Source of the DNA: the human T2T-CHM13v2.0 reference genome, Homo sapiens
NCBI RefSeq assembly: GCF_009914755.1
Contig: NC_060935.1
Direction: 5' to 3' (one strand)
DNA: 64,000 nt
Position numbers and translations under genes: made by a program. Numbering within the stretch: position 1 is the stretch's first letter; the number at the start of each line of letters is the position of its first letter. Shown here in pieces: positions 1 through 57,873 of this stretch. The notes under the pieces are model-generated. The model saw only the letters and a list, made by a program, of their open reading frames with translations. It was not told where the DNA came from and made no database searches.

Positions 1-239
1 CATGTGTTGGTCACTAAACTAACCATTCAGACATGTCAGTGGCCACACATGAGAAATAGAATTTTACAAAATTAGTTCCCAAAATTCACTAAACAAACAA
101 ACAACTAAAAACAGCAACAACAAACCCTGGAGAGTGGGAAAGAATCTGAATTCCAAAGTTGCCACACTGTGTTATCTTGAATGTCCAATATTCAACAAAA
201 AATTAAAGTCATGCAAAGAAACAAGAAAGTAAGGCCCAT

Positions 240-243
240 ACAC

Positions 244-285
<42 letters not shown>
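240..285. repeat. (CA)n microsatellite
   Basis: About 20 CA units. Confidence 0.97.
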
Positions 286-287
<2 letters not shown>

Positions 288-734
288 GTCAATAGAAACT
301 TTCCCTGAGGAAGAAAAAATATTGAACTTACTAGACAAAGACTTTACATCAACTACTTAAACATGTTCAAAGTACTAAAGGAAGCCATAGCTAAAGACCT
401 ACAGGGAAGTATGAAAATTATGTTTCATCCAATAAAAAATAAAAAGATAGAAATTATTTTTTGAAAAACCAAATATTAATTCAGAAGTTGAAAACTAACT
501 GAAGTGAAAAATTCACTAGAGCTCAATAGCGGATTTGAGCCAGCAGAAGAAAGAATCTGCAAACGTCAAGATAAGTAGATTGAGATTATTCCGTATGAGA
601 AAAGAAAAGAGAATAAACAAAAGGAATAGAGCCTCAGAGTCCTGTGGGACATCAGTAAATTACCAACATACACATAATGAAAATCCAAGAGAGGCTAGAA
701 AGGAGCAGAAAAAATATTTTAAAAAATAATGACC

Positions 735-1076
<342 letters not shown>

Positions 1077-1129
1077 TTACATGTCCAAGAAGCTCAAGAA
1101 ACTCCAACCAGGATACACTCAAAGACAAT

Positions 1130-1602
1130 TAAAATATTCTAAAATTGGTTGTTGTGATAGTTGCACTTTAAATATACAAAAAGCTATTGAATTGTACTCT
1201 TTATATCTGTAAATTGAATGGTATGTTAATTATATCTCAATAAAGTTTTTAAAAAGAGAATGAGGTACCAATACATCCTTACAACATGGATGAACCTTTA
1301 AAACTTTGTTCTAAGTGAAAGAAGCCAGTCACAAAAAGCCACGTATCATATAGCCCACTCATATAAAATGTTCATAATAGGCAATTCCATAGACACAGAA
1401 ACTAGATTTGCGCTTGCAGAAGTTGGAGGGAAGGGAGTTACTGACAATGGGTATGGGATTCCTTTAGGGAGTGATAAAAATATTCTGCAATTAAATAGTT
1501 GTGATGGATTCACAATCTTGTGAATATGCCAAAAATCACTGAACTACATACACTAAAAGGGTGAACTTTATGGTGTGTAAGTTATATCTCAATGTTTATA
1601 AA
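1130..1602 (+). mobile_element. L1M (L1MB/MC-like) 3' end fragments, two in tandem
   Basis: Twice ends in ...ttatatctcaat; acaacatggatgaacctt and ctaagtgaaagaagccagtcacaaaa motifs. Confidence 0.7.
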
Positions 1603-3635
1603 AGCAACACCCTCCTCCCCAGAAATTTCAGTAGTGAAAAGGTGTAAAACCATTGTAATGGTTGCACATGTTTATGCTGGAAAATTGGTAAACTGAAATG
1701 TTTCTTTAAAACACTTATACTTCATTGGGAGAGAGTTATTTCTTTGGAAAATGCCCTTTCTCTTTTTTCTATGAATAGTCAAAGTTTCAGGAAAAAGAAC
1801 CAGTAATACACATGTATTTTAAAAGGTGTGACTAAGTGTCAGAGGGTAGATTGTGCAAGATAGGTACCTTAGAGCTTGACCAGGACAACTCTTTGCTAAT
1901 CTTCAGGAATTCTTGGGACTCTGGCCCTGACTCAGCCAAGACAAGAATAGTGAGCTAATGATTAATGATGTGATGATTAAAGTTCAAATTCTCCTGGTGG
2001 CAGTCAGAACCAGTTTGTTTATTGATGGCTTATACCCAGTATAATCAGTTGGATATCCTGGCTTGGCTATGTGACCAAGAGGATATAAAAGACCCTGTTG
2101 GAAATGTTTAAGTACCTTTCCCAAAACAAAGATTTATCATCACACAATTCTTGGTAATTCAATTTGGAAACATTGCATATCCTGATGCAAATAAGAAAGA
2201 CACTGGGGAGCTGCGCTTGGAAGTTTCTTGGACCTCTGATGCTTTCTTGCAATCTCTTGTTCCTGCTTTACTGTATCCTCTGCCTTTATTGAATATGCTC
2301 TTCGAGGCCTTGTTAGTCTTTCAATTATCCAGCCTAATGCAATCTCTTTTCATGAGTAATGCATTCCATACTGCAGATCTTTTTTATAAAAAGTAAAGGA
2401 GCAGCAATCTCAGTAATTATATTCAAATGAGACTCTCAAAACCCTGTGAGCAAATATAAGCAAAATTAGTCCCACCTGTGGGACAGCGCCAATATACCCA
2501 GCAGCTGTTCATGAGTAGAGATGGCAGAGAGAATACTGCCTGTTCCCAAACATAGAAATCCAATCTGGTTGTCCAACCCAAACCACGAAAATCGTTGCAT
2601 TCCACAGACAAGGATACAAGAGTTATATTTGTGAAAAAGAAGCTTCTGCTGCTCAAGAACTTTCTCAATGATGCCTGAAATTGAGGGTCAAGAAACAAAC
2701 CCCAGAATCTAGTAATCGACTCTTGAGTACCACCCCACCCCACATTATCTAGACCATAGGTCTAAGTCAGAGATTCTGATGATCTCCTCAGGTACTTTGG
2801 CAAATTCATCACAAATATCTCCTGTTAATATATGGGTAAAGAAATGTTTGGGGTTAATATGTGGGTAGAGAAATGTCGGGATGACCAGAGCCATCCTCAT
2901 ACATAGTCATATCTCTGTAGCACAAGTGTTCAAATTTCTCCAAATTCCACCACTAAAAAGATATCAGAGCCACATGGATCCATACCTTCATGGCTTAGAT
3001 GTTTTCCCATGCTTTGCTTGAGCTCACACTATCAAGAAGGTACCAAGAGAAAGGCACCATTCTTTGAACTTAATCGCCAGACCCACTTCTTCTGGTTGCT
3101 ATTTAACCAGACTGGTCATCCACTCTCATTTATTCTGTCATCCTTTCTACCCAAAGTATAACCAGTTGAACAGTGTGGATTGCCACCACCCTAGAGCATT
3201 TCAACAATATCCTGGCTCTAGGTTCTCTAATCTTCTTCCTAACAAAGACTACACAGGGGTTGTATTAGTCACTCACCTCCCTCCCACCCCTGGCCGTATT
3301 CTGTACTTCCCTACAAGGAGCTATTAAGCTTAAGACCCATGAATTCAGCCAGCAATTTGTCTTTCTCATTTGCTTATAAAATAAGCAAGGTTTACAAGGG
3401 AAACTCCTGAGGCAGGTCTTCTGAAGCTGGAAAATAATTTCAACCCCTACACACAAATTAAGCCAGAGAGAATTGAAGCTGATGAGGCATTTAAGTGGGC
3501 AATAAAAATCTGGAGTTGGTGGAGGGAGAACCACCTAAGGTGAGCTGAAATACGTAACACTTGCAAGAATCTCCCAGACAGGAACTCCGACTAGTCTAAG
3601 CAACCCTGTAAGACCTAAAACAAGTTTTCTTCCTC

Positions 3636-4000
3636 TCTTACTCCATTTGGGCTGTTATAATGAATTAACAAAAACTGGATAGTTTGGAAACATAAGAAAT
3701 GTATTTCTCACAGTTCTGGAGCCTTGGAAGTCCAACATCTAGGCACATTCACTGTCTGATGAGGGCCCACATCCTGGATCACTTCTCATTGAAATCATTT
3801 CTTCCTACTCTGTCCTCACATGGTAGAAGAGGCAAAGGATCTCTCAGGCCTTTTTTATAAGGGCACTAATCCCATTCGTGGGGTCTCTACCTTTATGGCC
3901 TAATCACCTTCCAAAGACCTCACTTCCTCATACCATCATATTGGGGGTAGGATTTCAACATATGAATTTGGGGGAGACAAAAACATTCAGACCATAGCAC
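3636..4000 (-). mobile_element. MaLR solo LTR (MLT1A/MST-like)
   Basis: tatttctcacagttctggag, ataagggcactaatcccatt, acatatgaatttgggggg and cattcagaccatagca motifs. Confidence 0.8.
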
Positions 4001-6465
4001 TTCTTTTGTCAATACTTACTGACGAAGCCTAAGGAGTAATAAAGGAACAGAATCCCAAGATGGGGAATAAAAAGGGGAATCTACTAACTTTTCTCTCAAG
4101 GTGAAGTGTCTTTTAGAAAGGAAAAAAGGGGAGAAAAGTCCCTCAAAGATCTTCTTTGAAGACAAGGTTTAGAACTTAGCTCTTATATCCTGAGAACTTA
4201 CTCCATCTCACCTAGAAAAATCAGGAAAAAGTGAGGAGAAAGAGAAAAAAAAAATCACAGTTTTAGTTTTCCACAAGCCTTGATGCAAGACACATCCAAA
4301 TCAATCCTCTGCCCAAATAACTTCTAATCCATGCACTTCCTTTTTCCTTCGTTAGAGTTTGCTTAAAAACCTAGAAAATGTACCTGCTTGACCTGGCAAA
4401 GCAATGGGGGTGGTTCTAATTGGCTAACAGCCTAAAATACTTGATGGTGTCCCTGGACTAATTAATTTTATTAAACACATTTGAGCTGGATTCTAGTGAG
4501 TGTTGCTAAAAGGAGGGATTCATTTATTACTTCATTCAGCAAACAGTTGTATAATTTTAATGTGCATGGTGCTGTTCTAGGCACCTGGGATCAATTATGA
4601 AAAGTACAGAAAATCAGTATGTTCATGAACTTTATATTCCTTTGAGAAAGTGCACACAACAGGAGGTAAGCCTGATGATGGGTTTAGTATAATCAATTCT
4701 TATGAAAAGATAATGCCCATATTTAGGCTTGGGAAACACACAATCTTTCCTGTGTATGTTTCCCCTAGATTTCTAAATTTTCTCTTTTGTCTACCCAGTC
4801 TGGTGACACAGACTGTGTCCCCTCAACCATGTCCCCTCATCCAACTTTTGTCCTCTCAGCTCTGGGCTTTACATATTCAGGTCCATGTTCATAATCCTTG
4901 CAACTCCATGGGGTTGTGATGAAGGTCAAATGTTTTAATGGAAGGTGAAATTATTGTTATAATCTCTTATTGTTAATATGGCCCTTGGCAATTGTATGGC
5001 CAAGGTCCATGCCTGGTTAGCCCTGCAACACTCTTTTCACTTCCCCTTCAGAGCCAACCACTCTCTAGTCTTGGCCATTTGTAAAGCCGTTTTCCCAGGC
5101 CATCATGTTGACACAGCTGCTTATGGTACCCATATCCTGGTTCCCCTGTCTGTTCTATGCATTACGTGTATGTAATTAGAACTTCCAACATTTCATTCCA
5201 TAAGTATGCTGACCAAAGTAGCTGAAGACCAGTAATGTAAATTCGTTTTTCTGTTTTGTTTTTTTTTTTTGTCTTTACTTGGATTCTCGCTACATGTAGA
5301 GCATAGGTGGTAGTCTCCCTTTAATTCTCATCCATATGTAGACACAAAACTTTTCCTTAAGGGTCCCTTATAACATCTTGCATGTGCTAAAACTTGAAAA
5401 CACTAAAAGAGAAAATAAACAGATAAACATAGATGGTGCAAGAACCACGAAACAATGTTAGGTATATTCCCCATGTGACTGCAACCAGGAATAACTATCC
5501 TATAGCTAGGAATCACTTTAAGTCCTATATAATGGCACACTAACCATGCAATAAGTGAAATATTCACCTTTGACGAAGTTACCAACATAACACTAATGAG
5601 CAATCTGTTTCCTCTGGCACTCATATCCATCTCAATGAACCTAACATCCCCCTTCGTGACCTTCATGCCCTTTCCGTGATACCCATATCTACAGTAGCTT
5701 GACCTTTAAAGCTTAGGAGTAGCACTTTTGTTCCTTCATTCACTTCCATCTCCCATTTACAGCCCCCAATTGCATTAGAGTGATTCATATATCGCTTTCG
5801 AAATGCCAACGGACACACAGTGACTCACGTTCCCTGCTTTCATCCTCATATTTCCTTATGGAAATACTGAGGTCCTGCATGTGCCATTTTAGTGAATGTC
5901 CCAGGTTTTCCCTATCTTCCAAAGCAGGAATTGCTCAAGTTATGAGGGACTTTGCTGAAGATCCTGGCATGTATGGGATTAATAGGTTTTCCTTCAGAGA
6001 GGCTTCCAGGTGTTTCAAGCTGCCATCCAATCTTTCAGGCAACAAGTCTTCTTCCCAGGCTACTTAGTGCAATTTCAAACACTAAGGAAGATTTAAAACT
6101 GCTGGTGGATGAATATGAGTGTGTTTTTAGAGGCATAAAACTAGGTGTGCTGGTGCCTTCTCTCTCTCCTTTGTGCCCTCATCTTACACTGGGCTTCAAA
6201 CACTGTTTCCCTCCTTTTGTTTGGCTGTGTGGGAAGCCACTTTCTAATCCCTAGACTGAGGTGGTATGGCCACTGCCAGTAAGAAAAATGGGAATTTCTG
6301 GAGGTACGTCCGTTAAAATTGCTGGGATGGAGACAAGGCTGATTGTGAAAGCAATATTTCCACAGGGTAGTCTAAGGGAAAGGGAGCACCTTGGATGAAC
6401 CGGTAGTCTGCACTTGAGACTAACACACTGTCACCAGCAGGAGAAGATTTTTTGCTGTGTTCTCT

Positions 6466-6838
6466 GTGTGTTAGTTTGTTCTCACACTGCTATATAGAAA
6501 TACCCAAGACTGGGTAATTTATAAAGGAAAGAGGTTTAATTGACTTACAGTTCTGCAAGGCTGGGGAGGCCTCAGGAAACTTAGAATCATGATGGAAGGG
6601 GAAGAAAACATAACCCTTCTCACAAGCGGTCAGGAGCGAGAAGTGCGAGAAGTGAAGGGGGAAGAGTCCCGTATAAAACTGTCAGTTCTCGTGAGAGCTC
6701 ATTATTACGAGAACAGCATGGGGGAAACCACCCCCATGATTCAACTACCTCCACCTGGTCTCTCCCTTTACATGTGGGGATTATGGAGATTATAATTCAA
6801 GATGAGATTCTGGGTGGGGACACAGCCAAACTATACCA
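6466..6838 (-). mobile_element. MaLR solo LTR (THE1/MSTA-like)
   Basis: gactgggtaatttataaaggaaagaggtttaattgac...gggtggggacacagccaaac. Confidence 0.9.
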
Positions 6839-6989
6839 CTATGGATCATGTTTTAGGAAGAAATTAGAATTCAAAGAAATCGTAGTTGAAGGGAGAGAAA
6901 TAAGACTAGTACATCTTTCCACATTCTCACAAATCTCCAATCAAAGGGCAGTGTGGACAATTCCCCAGTGCTCGCAGGGAAGGTCTAAT

Positions 6990-7332
6990 CAAGATAGAAT
7001 AGAATCGTGGTTATCAGAGGCTGGGGGAAAGGGAAGACACTGGTCAAGGGTACAAAATTTTCATTAGACAGGAGGAATAATTTCTGGTAATCTATTACAC
7101 ACCATGGTGACTATAGTTAGTAATAATGCATTATATACTTCAAAATAGCTAAAAGGACGTTAAATGTTCTCGCTAGAAAGAAATAATAAGTATTTGAGAT
7201 GACAGATATGCTAAGTAGCGTGATTTGATCATTCCACAATGTATACATGTATCCAAACATCACATTGTACCTGATAAATATATACAATTATTACTTATCA
7301 ATTAAAAATAAAATGGAACTTAAAAAAAGAAA
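6990..7332 (+). mobile_element. L1MA 3' end
   Basis: ggtgactatagttagtaataat...catcacattgtacc...aattaaaaata followed by an A-rich tail. Confidence 0.8.
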
Positions 7333-7602
7333 TATATGGCCTGGAGGATTCACCAGGAGTTATTAAGTTGCTTAATGGAATTGACAAAGTGTAGGCTTTA
7401 CCTCCGACAGGGCTGCATTGAAATCGTGACTCTGCCACTTGCAGGCTAGGTGTCTTGTAAGCCAACCAGGCAATCTGTTCCTCCATCTGCGAAATGAAAG
7501 AAAAAGAAAATTATGCTCTTTTTTCCTGACAACCTGGAACATATTCCTAAGCCCCTCTGTGATAAAGTCACTAAATAACAAGAAATTTAATAGGTTTAGG
7601 AA

Positions 7603-8163
7603 TTGGATCCTGAGGGTCTTTTTTAGCAATTGAACCGGACTAACTGCCACTACTAGTGCAGATCTGAACAGCAGTATGGATATCATTGGAATATCAAATG
7701 CAGAGTTCAGACTTGCTAACATAACTGCGTAGGAGGAGGGTGCAATCTTCCTTAGTGCTGCAATGAACATAAGTATGCATATATCTTTATAATAGAATGA
7801 TTTATATTCCTTTGGGCATACGCCCAGTAATGGGATTGCTCATCTCAAATACTTGTACCTAAGCTGAGAGGACACAAGTTGGATGAGGGGACATGGCTGA
7901 GGGGACACAGTCTGTGTCACCAGACCTAAGTAACCATCCCTGAACCATGTTAAAGGCAGTATTAGGATAGGCAGATGAGCTCAGTTAGTGTTATTCCACA
8001 AATTGCCTTTTTCCGGGAAATTGCACCCTCCTCCTACACAGTTATGTTAGCAAGTCTGAACTCTGCCTTTGATATTCCAAAGATATCCATCCTTCTGTTC
8101 AGATCTGCATTAGTGGTGGCAGTTAGTCCAGTTCAATTGCTAAGAAAGACCCTCAGGATCCAA
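7603..8163. repeat. Inverted repeat: 144-bp arms 7603-7746 and 8020-8163, 273-bp spacer
   Basis: Manual alignment: 135/144 identical, no gaps; also seen as near-identical peptides in ORFs 7372..7770(-) and 7975..8214(+). Confidence 0.95.
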
Positions 8164-9197
8164 ACTGGTAATGCTGACAAAGACAGTTTCTTACAGGCAA
8201 AGGATACAATATAGCAACAGCATTAATGTAAGGATATACACCTCAGCCTAAGGCTGCCTCATAGGGAGGGGTCCAAAGAGGCTGGGAGTGGGCTCTAAGT
8301 ATTCTCCCTGCGCAAGGATGTATGGATGCACTTTTCTGTTTGGTCAGGAACCACCTACGTATGTGCAAACCTCTCAGATCCAGTGAGGCCAAAATGGCAT
8401 TACAGCCTGGTCTTCTGCTACCCTGCTGTTCATGTGGGCATAGTCTGCTATATAATGGCAGGCTTATGCTATATAATGCTATATAATTGAGGACTCATTG
8501 AGACCCAATGCAAATCATCAATGTCACTGTTATCAGTAGACGGTGCAGATGAGCTCTACTTAGGGGTCATTGATGTGAAACTTCAGCAAAACAGCTTGGG
8601 AGAATTGTAGCCCTGGTTGAGTCAACCTCCCAGCATACAACCCCATCCCCAGTCATCAGAAGTCATGGTCCAGTGTACATCAAATTGGCCCCTAAAAATG
8701 CTAAAAATGCCCTTCTCAATGTGACCCTAACCCATAATTTCACATTTTCCTTGTACAGTCATATGTCACTTAACAATAAGAATACATTCTGAGGAACTCA
8801 TTGATAGGCAATTTCATCGTTGTGCAAACATCATAACAAACCTAGAAGATACAAACTACGACAGACCTAGGCTATGTGATATAGTCTATTGCTTCTAGTC
8901 TACAAACATGCAAGTTACTGTACACAATTGTAGCACAATAATAACTATTTGCATTTCTAGGTATATCTAAACATAGAAAAGGTACAGTAAAAATACACTT
9001 TAAAAGATAAACGATGGTATACCTGCGGAGGACTGAAAGTTGCTCTAGGTGCAAGAGTGAGAGGGTGGTGAGTGAATGTGAAGGCCTAGAATATTACTGT
9101 TAACTATTGTTGATTTTATAAATACTGTACACAGGCTACACTACATTTATTTTTAAATACTTTTCATTCTTCAGTAACAAGTAAGCAACTTCTGTAA

Positions 9198-9518
<321 letters not shown>

Positions 9519-9564
9519 TAAACTTTGTAATTTTTTTAAGCTCTCATTTTTTCAGATTTTTGGG

Positions 9565-12500
9565 GTTTTTTAAATTTTATTTTAAGTTCCAAGATACATG
9601 TGCAGGATGTGCAGATTTGTTACATAGGTAAACATGTGCCGCGGTGGTTTGCTGCACCTATCAACCCATCACCCAGATATTAAACCCAGCATGCATTAGC
9701 TATTTTTCCTGATGCTCTCCCTCTCCATGCCCCACTCGACAGGTCTCAGTGTGTGTTGTTCCCCTCTGTGTTCATGTGTTTGGATAGTTCAGCTCCCATT
9801 TATAAGTGAGAACATGTGGTGTTTGGTTTTCTGTTCCTGTGTTAGTTTGCTGAGGATGATGGCTTCCAGCTCCATCCATGTCCCTGCAAAGAACATGATC
9901 TTATTGCTTTTTATGGATGCATAGTATTCCTTGGTGTATATGTACCAATGATAGATCCAGTCTATCATTGATGGGCATTTGGGTTGATACCGTGTCATTG
10001 CTATTGTGAATAGTGCTGCAATGAACATAAGTATGCATATATCTTTCTAATAGAATGATTTATATTCCTTTGGGCATATGCCCAGTAATGGGATTGCTGG
10101 GTCAAATGGTATTCCTGGTTCTAGGTCTTTGAGAAATCACCACACTGTCTTTCACAATGGAACTAATTTACATTCCCACCAACAGTGTAAAAGGGTTCCT
10201 ATTTCTCTGCAACCTCACCAGCATCTGTTGTTTCTTGACTTTTTAATAATTGCCATTCTGACTAGCATGAGATGGTATCTCACTGTGGTTTTGATTTGCA
10301 TTTCTCTAATGAACAGTGATGTTGAGCTTTTTTTATGTTTCCTGGCTGCATAAATGTCTTATTTTGAGAATGTTTGTTCATGTCCTTTGCCCACTTTTTG
10401 ATGGGGTTGTTTGTTTTTTTCTTGTAAATTTGTTTAAGTTTCCCTTGTAGATTCTGGATATGAGACCTCTGTCAGATAGATTGCAGAAATTTTATCCATT
10501 TCTCTAGGTTGTCGCTCACTCTGATGATAGTTTATTTTGCTGTGCAGAAGCTCTTTAGTTTAATTAGAGCCCATTTGTCAATTTTTGCTTTTATTGCAAT
10601 TGCTTTTGACATTTTTGTCATGAAATCTTTGCCCATGCCTATGTCCTGAATGGTATTGCCTAGATTTTCTTCTAGGGTTTTTACAGTTTTGGGTTTTACA
10701 CTTAAGTCTTTAATCCATCTTGAGTTAATTTTTGTATAAGGTATAAAGGAGGGGTCCAGTTTCAATTTTCTGCATATGGTTAGCCAGTTCTCCCAGCACC
10801 ATTTATTAAATAAGGAATCCTTTCCCCATTGCTTGTTTTTGTCAGGTTTGTTGAAGATCACATGGTTGTAGATGTACAGTCTGATTTCTGAGTTCTCTAT
10901 TCTGTTCCATTGGTTTATGTGTCAGTTCTTGTGCCAGTACCATGCTCTTTTGGTTACTGTAACCTTGTAGTATGTGCAGTCTTATAGCTGAGTTCTGTAT
11001 TCTGTTCCATTAATCTATGTGTCTGGTTTTGTACCAGTACCATGCTGTTTTGACTGTAGCCTTTTAGTATAGTTTGAAGTCAGGTAGTGTGTTGCCTTCA
11101 GCTTTGTTCTTTTTGCTTAGGATTTTCTTGACTATATGGGCTCTTTTTTGGTTCCATATGAAATTTAAAGTAGTTTTTTTCTAATTCTGTGAAGAATGTC
11201 AATAGTAGTTTAATGGGAATAGCATTGAATCTATACATTTGAGCAGTATGGCCATTTTCACGATATTGATTCTTCCTATCCATGAGCATAGAATGTTTTT
11301 CCATTTGTTTGTGCCCTCTCTTATTTCCTTGAGCAGTGGTTTGTCATTCTCCTTGAAGAGGTCCTTCACATCCCTTGTAAGTTGTATTCCTAGGTATTTT
11401 ATTCTCCTTGTAGCAGTTGTGAATGGGAGTTCACTCATGATTTGGCTCTCTGCTTGTCTATTGTCAGTGTATAGGAATGCTTGTGATTTTTGCACATTGA
11501 TTTTGTATCCTGAGACTGTGCTGAAGTTGCTTATCAGATTAAGAAGCTTTTGGGCTGAGACAATGGGGTTTTTTAGATATAGGATCATGTCATCCGCAAA
11601 CAGAGACAGTTTGACTTCCTCTCTATTTGAATACCCCTTATTTCTTTCTCTTGCCCGATTGTTCTGGCAGAACATCCAATACTATGTTGAATAAAAGTGG
11701 TGAGAGAGGGCATCTTTGTCTTGTGCTGGTTTTTGAGGGGCATGCTTCCAGCTTTTGCCCATTCAGTATAGTATTGGCTGTGGGTTTGTCGTAAATGGCT
11801 CTTATTACTTTGAAGTATGTTCCATCAATACCTAGTTTATTGAGAGTTTTTAACATGAAGGAATGTTGAATTTTACTGAAGGTCTTTTCTGTATCTATTG
11901 AGATAATCATGTGTTTTTTGTCTTTAGTTCTGTTTATGTGATGGATTATGTTCATTGATTTGCATATGTTGAACCAGGCTTGCAACCCAGGGATGAAGCC
12001 AACATGATTGTGGTGGATAAGCTTTTTGATGTGCTGCTGGATTTGGTTTGCCAGTGTTTTTTTGAGGATTTTTTTCACCGATGTTCATCAGGGATATTGG
12101 CCTGAAGTTTGCTTGTTGTTGTTGTTTCTCTTCCAGGTTTTGATATCAGGATGATGCTAGCCTTATAGAATGAGTTAGGGAGGAGTCCCTCCATTTCAAT
12201 TGTTTGGAATAGTTTCAGAAGAAATGGTACCAGCTCCTCTTTGTACCTCTGGTAGAATTCAGCTGTAAATCCATCTGGTCCTGGGTTTTTTTGGGTTTTA
12301 TGCTATTTCTTACTGCCTCAATTTCAGAACTCGTTATTGGTCTATTCAGGGATTCAGCTTCTTCCTGGTTCAGTCTTGGGAAGGTGTATGTGTCCAAGAA
12401 TTTATCCATTTCTTCCAGGTTTTCTAGTTTATTTGCATAGAGGTGTTTATAGTATTCTCAAATGATTGTTTGTATTTCTGTGGGGTCAGGATGATATCTG

Positions 12501-12993
12501 CTTTATCACTTTTTATTGTATCTATTTGATTTTTCTCTCTTCTCTTCTTTATTAGTCTAGCTAATGATCTATTTTATTAATTTTTGCAAAACCAGTTCCT
12601 GGGTTCATTGTTTTTTTGAAGGGTTTTTTGTGTCTCTGTTGCCTTCAGTTCTGCTCTGATCTTGGTTATTTCTTGTCTTCTGCTAGCTTTGGCGTTTGTT
12701 TGCTCTTGGCTCTCTAGTTCTTTCAGTAGTGACATTAGGATGTTGATTTGAGATCTTTCTACCTTTTTGACGTGCGCATTTAGTGCTATAAATTTCCCTC
12801 TTGATGATGCCTTAGCTGTGTTCCAGAGATGCTGGTACACTGTCTCTTTGTTCTTATTGGTTTCAAAGAACTTCTGAATTCCTGCCTTAATTTCATTATT
12901 TACCCAGGAGTCATTCAGGAGTAGGTTGTTCAGTTTCCATGTAGTTGTATGGTTTTGACAGAGTTTCTTAACCTTGAGTTCTAATTTGATTGT
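9565..12993 (-). mobile_element. 5'-truncated L1PA (about 3.4 kb, ORF2 fragments plus 3'UTR), inactive
   Basis: ORF track shows broken ORF2 peptides ([53 protein letters not shown]). Confidence 0.97.
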
Positions 12994-13104
12994 GTAAACT
13001 TTTTGAAATATAATAACACTTAGCTTTAAACACAATTTAAACACAAATATATGATACAGCTGCACAGAAATATATCCTTTATATCCTTATTCTATAAGCC
13101 TTTT

Positions 13105-13418
13105 TAATTTTTTATTTACTTATTTATTTTTGAGATGGAGTCTCGCTTTGTCGCCCAGGCTGGAGTGTGCCGTGGAGTGATCTTGGCTCACTCCAACCTC
13201 CACTTCCTGGGTTCAAGCAATCCTCCCACCTCAGCCTTCTGAGTAGCTAGGATTGAAGGCATGCACCGCCACACCCAGCTAAATTTTTTTGTATTTTTAG
13301 TAGAGATGGGGTTTCACCATATTGGCCAGGCTGGTTTCAAATGCTTAACCTCAAGTGATCTGCCTGCCTTGGCCTCCCAAAGTGCTAGGATTACAGGCAT
13401 AAGCTGCCATGCCAAGCC
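13105..13418 (-). mobile_element. Alu
   Basis: Alu consensus. Confidence 0.95.
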
Positions 13419-14091
13419 TAATTTTTTTTTCATCTTTTACTTTTTAAGCTTTTTTGTTACAAACTAATACCCCAACACACACATTAGCCTAGCCCCACAC
13501 AAGGTTAGGATTATTAATAGCATTGTATTTTTCTCCTTCATGTCTTGCCCCACTGGAAGATCTTCAATGGCAATAATATACATGAAGCTGTCATCTCCTA
13601 TTATAACAATGCCTTCTTCTAGAATATCTCCTGAGTGACGCCCCCAAGCCTGTCTTACAGTTAACCTTTTTATATATAAGTAGAGGAAGTACAATCATCT
13701 AAAATAGCAATAAAAAGTATAATATAGTAAATACCTAAACCAATAACAGTCATTTATTATCATTATCAAGTATTATGTACATTTTATAATTATATGTGCT
13801 AGACTTACATGACTGGCAGTACAGTAGGTTTGTTTGCATCAACGTCACCACAAACACATGAGTAATGTACTCTGCCACCACTTTATGATGGCTATGATGT
13901 TACTAGATGAGAGGAACTTTTCAGCACCTTCATAATCTTATAAGACTACCATCATGTATTCAGTCTGTCTTTGACCAAAAGGTCATTATGCAGTGTATGA
14001 CTATAGTTCAAAATCACAATGACACAGTAAAGCTTTTGCCAACTAAGACACATTTCGCAAACTAGCTCTATAGTTGTTGGGCCCTGGTACC

Positions 14092-14542
14092 CGTGAAAAG
14101 AAAATATCTTGGGCCCCTAGAATCACTCAGGAAAACTCAAGCTGGGAACTGTATAGGGCAAACCTGCCTCCCATTCTATTCAAAGTCACTCCTCTGCTCA
14201 CTGATATAGATGCATATCTGATTTGCTTCCTTTGGAAAGGCTAATTGGAAACTCCAAAGATGTAGCCATTTGTGTATCACCTATCTGTGAACTGGAAGCT
14301 CCCTCCCCACTTCAAGTCTTCCTGTTTTTGCTTCAAGTTGTCCCCTCTTTCCAGACTGAACAAATGTGCTTCTTAATTGATGTCTCATGTATCCCTAAAT
14401 GTGTAAAACCAAGCTGTGCCCTGACCACCTTGGGCACATGTCATCAGGACTTCCTGAGGCTGTGTCACAGGCGCATCATCAACCTTGGCAAAATAAACTT
14501 TCTAAATTAACTGAGACCTGCCACAAATTTTCAGGATTCATA
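14092..14542 (+). mobile_element. ERV1 solo LTR (MER4A-like)
   Basis: gtgaaaagaaaatatcttgggcccc start; gaccaccttgggcacatgtcatcaggac; AATAAA near the 3' end. Confidence 0.75.
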
Positions 14543-15202
14543 GACCCCGAGAGGAAAATGTATCCTTAAGGACAGAGGGAGGACAGAGCTTGGAAACTAT
14601 TAATTCTTTTGGTCTCCCTCCAAAAGAGCCTGGATATTTTTCGAGTTATGTGTAATCCATGCTCGCCCCTGAGGCAGACCCACCCTCCTGAGGGACTTAA
14701 AGACAGGACCATTATGTGGTTCATGTTTCTTCAAAAAGGAAGTTTATCTGGTACCAAGTTTTTCTGAACTGCCAGAGGTAGTTGCAGTTGAGACCCCTCA
14801 CACACCCTTAAAAAGGCTCTGAAGTTACTGACACAAAAAAGACATCTGGCTACAAGAAGGGGCTTCTCCTGGATCTCCATCATCCATGTCAGTAGATACC
14901 TAATGAAGCTCTCCACTGAATCCCAGTCCCATGTCCTGCACCATAAATCACATCGTTTTCTTCTCAGATAGCCCATCCACCTCCCACCTTGGCCCAGAAC
15001 AAGAACCTGAGCTTATAAACTGAGACTACCCATGCCTGCTCCCTTAATGTGCAAATCAAAAAAATCAGAGATAGTTGTGAATCTTTAAACACCAGTTATA
15101 ACTGAATAATTCTTCAGACCAAAACTCAAATACAAAAAGACTAATAGCTAACATGCTGGTAATAAGCTAGTAGGACACTTTTAAATAAGTCTAGCCACTT
15201 AA

Positions 15203-17014
15203 AGAGGTTTGGGTGTAAGAGTATATCTGGTTATGGATTACTAAAGGACATTTGGTTATTGATTGTAGAAGCATAATCATTAACCCTGTTAGGTGTCATT
15301 TTGTGTACAGGAAAAGGCAAGGACTAGGATCATTTCTCTTTTAAGGAATGTGGTGACTTAGGTAAGAGACTTGGAGCCTGTTTTTGTTTCCAAAGCATCT
15401 TTTCGGAGAACTGCAGGTCATCACAGAGTCAGGGGCTTTGTGAAATTATGCTGGCAAACAGAAATGAGCAAATATGGCTTCTTACATTTGCTTCTTTGTC
15501 TCACAAGCTCCCCCTTTTGGTCACAAATCAATCACCTGGTTGTATTTATAAGACCAATGCTAATTATTCCACATAGTTAGGAAGGCTCTTTTCCAGGAAG
15601 GTTGATAGTCTTCAGTTGCGGTTATACGGAATGAACATTGAGCCCAGTGTGCATACTTGCCTATTTATTGAAAAACATGCTTCAGATCGCATCTTATCTT
15701 AATTAGCATAAGCCAGGTTTCCTGACGTTGCCTTCTCTTGCACCTAACACAACACCTCAATAGGATTATTATGAGGATACTACAGATAATATATAGCAGT
15801 ACATACTTAAGTGAGTTAAAGCATTAAAGTAAGTTAAAGATTGGGAGAAAAACATGATAATAATTTTTTAAAAACTGTAACATACACTTGTTTCTTTATT
15901 TATTTATTTAGAGACAGGGTCTCACTTTGTCACCCAGCCTAGAGTGCAGTGGCATGAACACGGCTCCCTGCAGCCTCAACCTCCCAGGCTCAAGGGATCC
16001 CCCCACCTCAGACTTATTATTTTTATTATAGATTCAGGGGGTAACTGTGGAGGTTTGTTACATGGATATATTGCTTAATGATGAGGTTTGTCCTTCAAGT
16101 ATACTCATCACCCAAATAACGAATATTGTGTCAAAGGTGGAATTTTTCAACCCTCATCTCCTTTGGTAAACTCCTCCCATCTAGGGAGTTACTTGGCAGT
16201 ACAGTTTCCATGTGTGTTATACATGCAGCCATTTCTTCCTAGTAACTTTCAACTAGGAAAATTTCCCTTCTGGAGAAACAAAATATCTCAAGGAAGAACT
16301 TACCTCTTTGTCAAGGAGTCAAAACAACTAGATGAATAAAACTCAGGACCAGAAACAAAGTAGGAGATCTGAGATTCAAGGGAGAGTCACCCAGTTGTCT
16401 CCAACCACGAAGAAGTTGGAGGGACTCAGAGGGCAGATGCTGGCCCCAAGGTGCTGGATCCCCACAATGTTCCAGACAACCCTGGGCAGTCCACTGTGAG
16501 TTCCTTCGTGGTTGTCAGGATTGTTCACTAAACAAAAAAGAAATCAAGCTTTTAAAGCATTAAAGTTAGTTTTATTCAGAAGTCTTACTGAGGGCTGTAG
16601 ACCAAAGGCTACAGTCCAGGTGCAGTTCTATCAGACTACTTTGATGCAGTATTTTAGTTCAAAGCTTATATACAGGTGGTAAAGATTCAGTACATGCAAA
16701 ATTACATCAAAGTTTGGGAGTAAGAGTACATCTGGTTATAGTTTACTAAAGTACATTTGGTTATAGATTGCACACACATAATCACTAATCCTGTCAGATG
16801 TTATGTGTAAGGAAAGGCAAGAATTAGAATTATGTATCTTTTAAGGGATGTACTGATTCAGTCCAGAGACGTGGGCGGCTGTGTGTTCTATCCTGTTTTG
16901 CCCTCCAAGCATGTTTCCAGAGAGCTGCATGTCATCACAGAGTCCTGGCTTTGTAAAATTATTCAAGCAGAAATGAGCACACATGGCTTCTTACATTTGC
17001 TACTTTGTCTCCCA
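15203..17014 (-). mobile_element. Internally deleted ERV1-class provirus: 5' LTR 16522-17014, PBS 16500-16517, PPT 15508-15518, truncated 3' LTR 15203-15505
   Basis: Two similar direct repeats ending ggcttcttacatttgc...tttgtctc(a/c)ca; minus-strand TGACAACCACGAAGGAAC just inside one LTR and AAAAGGGGGAG just before the other. Confidence 0.75.
15891..16011 (-). mobile_element. Partial Alu (old, monomer-length)
   Basis: gagacagggtctcactttgtcacccag...ggctcaagggatccccccacctcag. Confidence 0.85.
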
Positions 17015-26393: not shown

Positions 26394-43061
<16,668 letters not shown>

Positions 43062-56537: not shown

Positions 56538-57195
<658 letters not shown>

Positions 57196-57244
57196 CTGAG
57201 CTCATGATTTCTAAAAGTAGATTTTTTTTCTCCAGGAAAAGTGA

Positions 57245-57753: not shown

Positions 57754-57873
57754 AGATATGAAAATCCATCTGGAGAAAAATTTAGAAGAAGAGCGCCAGA
57801 TATTACTGCAGCAACAAAAAATATGTCGAAATCGAGCACGTAAATATTTTGTGGAGTCAAATCGGAGAAAAAA
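57754..57873 (+). CDS. CEP126: CEP126 coding exon 2 (DMKIHLEKNLEEERQILLQQQKICRNRARKYFVESNRRK); gene continues beyond window
   Basis: cattag|A acceptor, AA|gtaagt donor, 120 nt, in frame with exon 1, coiled-coil-like composition. Confidence 0.92.

What the first reader, a model, noticed from the sequence alone, without database searches (positions are those of the whole stretch)
7603..7925. Four-piece mosaic of locally templated copies: footprint of serial template switching
Seen in sequence: almost all of this 323-bp block is copied from elsewhere within 3 kb. (A) 7603-7746 is an inverted copy of 8020-8163 (135/144). (B) 7753-7840 is a direct copy of 10011-10098 inside the neighbouring L1PA (86/88); it shares that copy's gaacataagtatgcatatat and gggcata variants, which the other L1PA at about 31913 lacks. 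(C) 7840-7854 is an exact inverted copy of 7188-7202 (15/15, 1-nt overlap with B). (D) 7862-7925 is an inverted copy of 4798-4861 (62/64). There is no poly(A) tail or TSD, so this is not a retrotransposition product. Established: short templated inserts from nearby DNA in mixed orientation are the signature of FoSTeS/MMBIR or polymerase-theta-mediated end joining. Inference: a single germline repair event sampled sites about 2.8 kb to the left, 2.2 kb to the right and two adjacent sites. It happened after the L1PA inserted, and the 2-6% divergence suggests it is old and probably fixed.
Basis: partly seen in the sequence, partly recalled or inferred. Interest (0 to 1): 0.8.

Follow-up and report, generated by a model that had tools for sequence, protein, structure and literature searches.

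The report
Patchwork insertion copied from nearby DNA
A 323-base stretch of intergenic human chromosome 11 is stitched together from copies of four or five neighbouring DNA segments, a textbook scar of error-prone, template-hopping DNA repair or replication that happened millions of years ago; it is a neat example of a known process, not a new one.

Summary
7603-7925 consists of:
- A: an inverted copy of 8020-8163 (135/144).
- B: a direct copy of 10011-10098, inside an L1 (86/88).
- C: an inverted copy of 7188-7202 (15/15).
- D: an inverted copy of 4798-4861 (62/64).

Whole-genome searches give A and D no other copy. The local L1 is B's best hit, at 98% against at most 94% elsewhere. These are three of only four pairs at 90% identity or more in the whole 64-kb window.

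Direction is settled for three pieces. An old dispersed repeat runs unbroken across the outer edge of the right arm, so the right arm is native and 7603-7746 is the copy. The donors of B and C sit inside intact old L1 sequence.

I add a likely fifth piece: 7744-7757 is an exact inverted copy of 6080-6093. It bridges A and B with 3-nt and 5-nt overlaps. Only 7 nt (7855-7861) remain untemplated.

Best reading, about 0.6: one old germline event of iterative template switching (FoSTeS/MMBIR-like, less likely polymerase theta). Neither the single-event claim nor the age (roughly 10-30 My from 13/296 differences) could be tested without primate orthologues. A two-step history stays open, because A is more diverged than B and D (not significant, p=0.16). 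This is a known kind of event in an intergenic setting, so interest is modest.

The parts
7603..7746 (.). Piece A: inverted copy of 8020-8163 (135/144). With its donor it forms a 144-149-nt inverted repeat.
   Evidence: Genome-wide the only other match is the partner arm.
7744..7757 (.). Piece E (new here): exact inverted copy of 6080-6093 (14/14). It bridges A and B, overlapping A by 3 nt (AAT) and B by 5 nt (TAGTG). The alternative reading is that A runs to 7751 with 2 mismatches, followed by 1 orphan T.
   Evidence: (pair I11). The 14-mer occurs 27 times in the genome. 14 of 6000 random non-repeat 14-mers had a local match.
7753..7840 (.). Piece B: direct copy of 10011-10098 inside the neighbouring L1 (86/88).
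7840..7854 (.). Piece C: exact inverted copy of 7188-7202 (15/15), overlapping B by 1 nt.
7855..7861 (.). 7 nt (GTACCTA) with no local template of 9 nt or more within window 1-16000.
7862..7925 (.). Piece D: inverted copy of 4798-4861 (62/64). It carries the donor's internal 14-nt tandem duplication.
7926..8014 (.). Spacer with no copy elsewhere; presumed ancestral DNA continuous with the right arm.
8015..8163 (.). Donor of A (right arm), in its native context.
   Evidence: 12 of 16 copies of an old dispersed repeat align straight across 8163/8164, as do 5 of 6 fetched copies.
8106..8363 (.). Old dispersed repeat (68-82% identity to 16 genome copies; family not named) that polarises the A duplication.
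10011..10098 (+). Donor of B, inside a continuous L1 on the + strand.
7188..7202 (.). Donor of C, inside an old dispersed repeat. I recognise it from memory as an old L1 3' end. It spans 7090-7335.
   Evidence: all 39 other copies scored cover this position, at 78-88% identity.
4798..4861 (.). Donor of D, in DNA that is otherwise single-copy.
6080..6093 (.). Candidate donor of E, in DNA that is otherwise single-copy.

Best explanation
7603-7925 is the filler left by one old germline event of iterative template switching at a broken or stalled replication intermediate.

How it would have worked: a free 3' end at about 7602 was extended on a series of nearby templates. In order these were 8163->8020 (opposite strand, which made an inverted repeat), probably 6093->6080, then the L1 at 10011->10098 (same strand), then 7202->7188, 7 untemplated bases, and 4861->4798. 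Synthesis then rejoined the original track at 7926. The same order read in reverse from the other end is equivalent. All templates lie within a 5.3-kb span that contains the insertion site.

Shown:
- Each piece is copied from its local donor.
- For A, B and C the direction of copying is known.
- The event is not retrotransposition, a transposon or a dispersed repeat.
- Both mosaic and donor have mutated since the copy was made.

Inferred:
- That it was one event.
- The pathway. FoSTeS/MMBIR-type replicative repair fits the 64-144-nt pieces and the 0.3-3-kb jumps better than polymerase-theta end joining.
- Germline origin, and an age of roughly 10-30 My.

No function is implied. The site is intergenic, about 18 kb beyond the 3' end of ANGPTL5.
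For: 1. Local donors are the best or only matches.
- A and D have just one other genome match each, the donor.
- B matches the local L1 at 98%, against 89-94% for the 38 other L1 copies scored (40 of 2188 candidates scored).
- B and its donor share private variants (GGGCATA; AAGTATGCATATAT) that are absent from 7 of 7 other L1 segments compared.

2. Polarity.
- 12 of 16 copies of an old repeat align across 8163/8164.
- The left arm's match to that family stops exactly at 7603.
- B's donor is flanked on both sides by continuous L1.
- C's donor lies inside an old repeat covered by all 39 other copies scored.

3. Contiguity. 316 of 323 nt are templated. Pieces abut with overlaps of 3, 5 and 1 nt and one 7-nt gap.

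4. Rarity. Three of the only four pairs at 90% identity or more in 64 kb converge on this 323 bp.

5. It is old and real.
- At 7789 the mosaic keeps the base found in 6 of 7 other L1 segments, while the donor has changed.
- At 7821 the donor keeps the majority base (6 of 7), while the mosaic has changed.

6. No poly(A) tail and no TSD.

7. The class is documented.
- Iterative template switches with templated insertions as the FoSTeS/MMBIR signature: PMC5120786, passages.
Against: - The single-event claim rests on adjacency alone. No pre-event allele was seen.
- A is more diverged from its donor (9/144) than B+D (4/152; p=0.16). The gap widens with C and E added (4/181; p=0.087) or with A read to 7751 (11/149; p=0.067). 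This is what a two-step history predicts.
- Microhomology is clear only at B/C (1 nt). The 3- and 5-nt overlaps depend on accepting piece E. In the empirical control, 14 of 6000 random non-repeat 14-mers have a local match, and many junction-spanning words could have been tried.
- One junction has 7 untemplated bases.
- Microhomology at the two outer junctions cannot be read without the ancestral sequence.
- The pathway (MMBIR or polymerase theta) cannot be told from sequence.
- Only 40 of 2188 L1 candidates were scored for B.
Confidence: 0.6

Rival explanations
1. Two steps at one fragile spot. First a simple fold-back template switch made an inverted duplication (A, perhaps originally longer), that is, a hairpin-prone palindrome-like structure. 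Later a break at the stem-loop boundary of that structure was repaired with the templated filler E-B-C-D.
For: - A is 6.3% diverged from its donor, B+D 2.6%.
- The filler sits exactly at the inner end of the left arm.
- The present inverted repeat folds very strongly as single-stranded DNA: -181.7 kcal/mol against -61.2 +/- 5.3 for shuffles, z -22.6.
- Centre-breakage of palindromes followed by stabilising rearrangement is an established phenomenon (recalled, not looked up here).
Against: - The divergence difference is not significant (p=0.16, or 0.067-0.087 under other counts).
- It needs two rare events at the same nucleotide.
- Piece E, if real, primes from the last 3 nt of A. That fits either model.
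Confidence: 0.22
2. Same single event, but made by polymerase-theta-mediated end joining (repeated prime-extend-dissociate cycles at a two-ended break) rather than by replicative FoSTeS/MMBIR.
For: - Overlaps of 1-5 nt, an untemplated stretch and mixed orientation are all compatible with it.
- Iterative annealing and extension with homology of 1 nt or more is the TMEJ model (PMC4032859, passages).
Against: - That paper stresses close proximity of inserts to their templates.
- Here the pieces are 64-144 nt long and their templates lie 0.27-3.0 kb away on both sides. This fits long-tract replicative synthesis better.
- Typical TMEJ insert sizes are recalled by me; I did not measure them here.
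Confidence: 0.12
3. One 3.4-kb inverted duplication of 4798-8163, later whittled down by internal deletions, with an L1 patch added at one deletion junction.
For: The three inverted pieces A, C and D lie in the mosaic in the order expected for an inverted copy (8163 > 7202 > 4861).
Against: - It needs at least three further events, one of them itself a templated insertion.
- Collinearity of three pieces has a 1-in-3 chance.
- Piece E (6080-6093), which lies between A and B, breaks the collinearity.
Confidence: 0.04
4. Not a templated mosaic at all: dispersed-repeat homology, a transposon with terminal inverted repeats, chance, or an assembly artefact.
For: - B and the donor of C are L1-derived.
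- Some L1 copies align 10-11 nt beyond B into C (91% over 7753-7851).
- Without repeat masking, 3.7% of random 22-nt stretches have a local match of 15 nt or more.
Against: - A and D are two-copy sequences genome-wide, so there is no transposon family and no TSD.
- The local L1 beats all other scored copies and shares private variants with B.
- An artefact would give identical copies. Instead there are 2-6% differences, with derived changes on both sides.
Confidence: 0.02

Closest known systems
Complex germline templated insertions attributed to MMBIR ('MMB-TI'; Osia et al. 2021, PMC8421209; passages read)
   Same: Insertions copied from nearby templates, often inverted. [quoted passage not shown]
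   Different: That survey searched only for templates within 100 bp and for inserts no longer than a sequencing read. Here the templates lie 0.27-3.0 kb away, the pieces are 14-144 nt, the total is 323 nt, and the event is old (2-6% diverged), not polymorphic as far as can be told.
FoSTeS/MMBIR iterative template switching at breakpoints of complex genomic rearrangements (for example Gu et al. 2016, PMC5120786; passages read. The original FoSTeS and MMBIR papers are recalled, not read here)
   Same: Serial switches between nearby templates in mixed orientation, microhomology of 0-6 bp, and templated insertions at junctions.
   Different: The disease-associated cases accompany large copy-number gains. 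Here the net product is only a 323-bp insertion, with an unknown deletion if any.
Short-range template switching in human and great-ape evolution (Loytynoja & Goldman 2017, PMC5453318; Walker et al. 2021, PMC7954356; abstracts in search listing only)
   Same: A replication-linked switch to the opposite strand creates an inverted local copy and new hairpin-forming repeats. The changes are fixed in ape lineages.
   Different: Those events are single there-and-back switches, described as short-range. This one has four or five templates over 5.3 kb.
Polymerase-theta templated insertions (Roerink et al. 2014, PMC4032859; passages read. Schimmel et al. 2019 seen only as a reference entry)
   Same: Iterative priming, extension and dissociation with minimal homology gives patchwork inserts.
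   Different: Those templates lie close to the break. Here they are up to 3 kb away and the tracts are long.

Membership tests
Complex templated insertion by iterative template switching (FoSTeS/MMBIR-type) | Every inserted segment matches a nearby genomic template better than anything else in the genome | tested here: met
   A and D have the donor as their only other match. B: local L1 98% against at most 94%, with 40 of 2188 candidates scored. C: 49 genome copies of the 15-mer, one of them 638 nt away.
Complex templated insertion by iterative template switching (FoSTeS/MMBIR-type) | Several templates, in mixed orientation, joined head to tail in one block | tested here: met
   Four or five pieces (three or four inverted, one direct). 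316 of 323 nt are templated.
Complex templated insertion by iterative template switching (FoSTeS/MMBIR-type) | Microhomology at the switch points | tested here: inconclusive
   1 nt at B/C. 3 and 5 nt only if piece E is accepted. One junction has 7 untemplated nt. The outer junctions are unreadable without the ancestral allele.
Complex templated insertion by iterative template switching (FoSTeS/MMBIR-type) | All pieces arose in one event (a pre-event allele lacks the whole block) | not testable with these tools
   No primate orthologue or second human assembly is available. The divergence heterogeneity test is not significant (p=0.16).
Polymerase-theta-mediated end joining insert | Templates in close proximity to the break; short tracts | tested here: inconclusive
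   Template distances are 265 nt to 3.0 kb and tracts reach 144 nt. That is larger than the proximity described in PMC4032859, but no hard limit was established here.
Retrotransposition product (L1 or processed copy) | 3' poly(A) tail and target-site duplication | tested here: not met
   Neither is present at 7602/7603 or 7925/7926. B is an internal 88-nt L1 fragment.
DNA transposon / MITE with terminal inverted repeats | Multiple genome copies of the arms; TSD | tested here: not met
   The arms occur only as this pair. The only dispersed homology is an older repeat that covers just the outer part of the right arm (from 8106) and runs on beyond it.

The most novel reading that the evidence does not exclude
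This locus may be one visible member of a class that current scans miss: kilobase-range, multi-template germline template-switch insertions fixed during ape evolution. The template-switch scans I read passages of look for templates within 100 bp (PMC8421209), and the others I saw only in abstract are described as short-range. If such events are common, they would be an under-counted source of new long inverted repeats (here a 144-nt stem) and of 'orphan' sequence in primate genomes.
Probability: 0.2. Interest if true: 0.5.

Novelty: new member of a known kind. Interest (0 to 1): 0.3.

Why it matters
It is a clean, almost fully decoded natural example of serial template switching. 316 of 323 bases are traced to five local donors, and three of the donors are polarised. 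It shows that a multi-template, kilobase-range patchwork can persist in the human germline without any large rearrangement.

It also created a 144-149-nt inverted repeat, a potential hairpin or fragile structure, in intergenic DNA near ANGPTL5. Its practical value is as a test case for primate comparisons that could date the event and reveal the pre-event allele. It could also serve to calibrate scans for longer-range templated insertions.

It does not reveal a new mechanism, and there is no sign of function.

Tried and rejected
- L1 continuation as the source of C. Two L1 copies align to 7850/7851 (91%, with a gap). But the local donor, which carries B's private variants, diverges right after 7840, and the 15/15 match to 7188-7202 is better. 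A pre-existing L1 fragment at 7753-7851 that was gene-converted is rejected, because no L1 homology flanks B.
- RNA-mediated origin from a minus-strand read-through transcript. A, C and D are collinear on that strand. But only 1 of 4 internal boundaries has a canonical splice dinucleotide (AG before D's donor), B is on the other strand, and there is no poly(A).
- Template for the 7-nt gap 7855-7861. No exact match of 9 nt or more within window 1-16000. By eye I saw an 8-nt direct match (7853-7860 to 7266-7273), which I treated as chance.
- Left flank 7330-7620. The genome search found only itself. I therefore could not test whether an old repeat (by eye it looks MIR-like) is interrupted at 7602, and so could not measure a deletion.
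- Rfam scan of 7000-8600. Two miRNA-family hits at 19-20 bits against gathering scores of 84-90, so nothing.
- PMC7615360 was searched for passages on templated insertions. It yielded only a reference entry and a figure legend, nothing usable.
- A search for 'ANGPTL5' plus 'template switching' found 0 papers, so I found no description of this locus in print in that library.
- The 'L1PA' label could be neither confirmed nor rejected. No repeat library is available. The nearest copies are 84-88% identical over 1 kb.

Full report
**What is there.** The window is human chr11:101,866,001-101,930,000 (T2T-CHM13). The block lies in intergenic DNA, about 18 kb beyond the 3' end of ANGPTL5 (hub annotation). 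I read 7100-8300, ran the repeat finder on 4000-11000 and ran a short-word BLAST of 7400-8300 against the whole window.

| Piece | Mosaic | Donor | Orientation | Identity |
|---|---|---|---|---|
| A | 7603-7746 | 8020-8163 | inverted | 135/144 |
| B | 7753-7840 | 10011-10098 | direct | 86/88 |
| C | 7840-7854 | 7188-7202 | inverted | 15/15 |
| D | 7862-7925 | 4798-4861 | inverted | 62/64 |

The repeat finder extends A to 7751/8015, 149 nt at 93%. The second L1 at 31913-32000 is only 84% identical to B. A self-BLAST of the entire 64-kb window found 221 non-self HSPs. Only four reach 90% identity: the A, B and D pairs and one Alu pair. Three of the four most similar sequence pairs in the window therefore converge on this 323-bp block.

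**Are the local donors the true sources?** I searched the window's own whole genome.
- The full block has one full-length copy. Its A part matches only the right arm.
- Its B part matches the local L1 at 98%, against 89-94% for the 38 other L1 copies scored (40 of 2188 candidates scored).
- D with short flanks has two candidates in the genome, itself and 4798-4861.
- The reciprocal search with 541 nt around D's donor again finds only itself and D.
- The spacer plus right arm (7926-8400) finds itself, the left arm, and 16 copies of an old dispersed repeat at 68-82% identity. That repeat covers window 8106-8363.

I aligned B with seven other L1 segments. Mosaic and donor alone share GGGCATA and the AAGTATGCATATAT string. 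It was tested and is not met.

**Direction of copying.** Twelve of the 16 old-repeat copies align straight across the outer arm boundary 8163/8164, as do five of the six I fetched and realigned. The left arm's match to that family stops exactly at 7603 (L017). The right arm is therefore native, and 7603-7746 is a truncated inverted copy of it.

B's donor lies inside continuous L1 sequence. C's donor lies inside an old dispersed repeat spanning 7090-7335. All 39 other copies scored, at 78-88% identity, cover the 15-mer position (40 of 4307 candidates scored). I recognise this repeat from memory as an old L1 3' end. D's donor and the mosaic copy are both in otherwise unique DNA, so D's direction rests on parsimony.

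**The small pieces.** C's 15-mer occurs 49 times in the genome (23 forward, 26 reverse; reversed-pattern control 9). The chance that one of about 47 unrelated copies falls within 3.5 kb is about 1e-4 per word. In empirical controls, 25 of 6000 random 22-nt stretches from non-repeat parts of the window had a local exact match of 15 nt or more. The figure was 147 of 4000 without masking.

I found a further piece. 7744-7757 is an exact inverted copy of 6080-6093 (pair I11). It spans the A/B junction.
- It explains the two 'mismatches' at the end of arm A and the orphan T at 7752.
- It overlaps A by 3 nt and B by 5 nt, as microhomology-primed switching would.
- The 14-mer occurs 27 times in the genome (control 26), giving a chance of about 6e-5 per word.
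- Against that, 14 of 6000 random non-repeat 14-mers had a local match, and many junction-spanning words could have been tried. I call it likely, not proven.
- The DNA around 6080-6093 is single-copy.

With piece E, 316 of 323 nt are templated. Only 7855-7861 has no template of 9 nt or more within window 1-16000.

**What it is not.**
- There is no poly(A) tail and no target-site duplication, so it is not a retrotransposition product.
- The arms are a two-copy sequence, so they are not a transposon's terminal repeats.
- An assembly or read artefact would give identical copies. Instead the copies differ by 2-6%, and B shows one derived change on each side. At 7789 the mosaic keeps the base of 6 of 7 other L1 segments and the donor has changed. 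At 7821 the donor keeps the majority base (6 of 7) and the mosaic has changed.
- An RNA intermediate is unlikely. Only one of four internal boundaries has a splice-like dinucleotide, and B is on the opposite strand.
- Rfam finds nothing.

**Mechanism.** The most economical account is one event of iterative template switching. A 3' end at about 7602 copied 8163->8020 from the opposite strand, which created the inverted repeat. It then probably copied 6093->6080, then 10011->10098 in the L1, then 7202->7188, added 7 untemplated bases, copied 4861->4798, and rejoined at 7926. All donors lie within 5.3 kb around the site.

Independent insertions would each have had to land within 0-7 nt of the previous one. 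That adjacency is the main argument for a single event, and it is an inference.

Tract lengths (64-144 nt) and jump distances (0.27-3.0 kb, on both sides) favour replicative FoSTeS/MMBIR-type synthesis over polymerase-theta end joining, whose templates are described as lying close to the break (PMC4032859, passages). Sequence alone cannot decide between them.

**The main rival.** A differs from its donor at 9/144 sites, B+D at 4/152 (Fisher p=0.16). Against B+C+D+E (4/181) p=0.087, and with A read to 7751 (11/149) p=0.067. The trend fits a two-step history: an inverted duplication first, then a break at the inner end of the hairpin-prone arm repaired with the E-B-C-D filler. The present inverted repeat folds at -181.7 kcal/mol against -61.2 +/- 5.3 for shuffles. 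That is expected by construction, but it shows the structure-forming potential. I give this rival about 0.2.

A '3.4-kb inverted duplication plus deletions' model is suggested by the collinear order of A, C and D. It needs more events, and piece E contradicts it.

**Age.** Pooled, there are 13 differences in 296 aligned nt (4.4%; Poisson range about 2.3-7.5%). Two paralogues diverge like two species. Using recalled calibrations (human-orangutan about 3%, human-macaque about 6%), the event falls roughly 10-30 My ago. It came well after the L1 inserted, since that L1's nearest copies are 84-88% identical over 1 kb (40 of 17,783 candidates scored). At that age the block should be fixed in humans. 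None of this could be checked, because no primate orthologue or other human assembly is reachable with these tools. The 'L1PA' label could not be verified.

**Comparison with what is known.**
[quoted passage not shown] That survey was limited to templates within 100 bp.
- Microhomology plus templated insertions from iterative switches is the accepted FoSTeS/MMBIR signature (PMC5120786, passages).
- Short-range template switches that create inverted copies and hairpins in ape genomes are described in PMC5453318 and PMC7954356 (abstracts in listing only).
- No paper in the library pairs ANGPTL5 with template switching (0 hits).

**Verdict.** This is a new, unusually well-resolved member of a known kind. 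It is longer-range and has more templates than the catalogued short events, but it is mechanistically unsurprising and has no sign of function. Interest 0.3.

Noticed in passing
window 7636, 7728, 7821 (with donor positions in 8020-8163 and 10079): All three CpG/TpG differences between mosaic and donors have the CpG on the mosaic side. At 7821 the L1 family majority (6 of 7) has T, so there the mosaic gained the CpG. With three sites this is not significant.
   Followed up: partly
window 4816-4843 and 7880-7907: A 14-nt tandem duplication (93% between units) is present in both D's donor and D. It therefore predates the copying (families D9 and D11).
   Followed up: no
window 4631-4644 vs 7801-7814 / 10059-10072: An exact 14-mer (TTTATATTCCTTTG) is shared between the L1-derived piece B, its donor, and a site only about 150 nt from D's donor. 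It may be chance or an old L1 scrap. No role was established.
   Followed up: no
window 8106-8363: An old dispersed repeat with 16 scored genome copies at 68-82% identity. The family is not named because no repeat library is available.
   Followed up: partly
window 56544-57196: Two repeats of about 300 bp in head-to-head inverted orientation, about 47 nt apart (self-inverted HSP of 653 nt at 80.6%). They belong to the Alu-like family that is abundant in 56-63 kb. They lie about 560 nt upstream of CEP126 exon 2 at 57754-57873 (hub annotation).
   Followed up: no
window 10866-11070: A tandem duplication of about 100 nt (82.6% identity) inside the donor L1.
   Followed up: no
window 7340-7600: By eye the left flank resembles a MIR-type SINE. 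The genome search returned only the locus itself, so this is unverified.
   Followed up: partly
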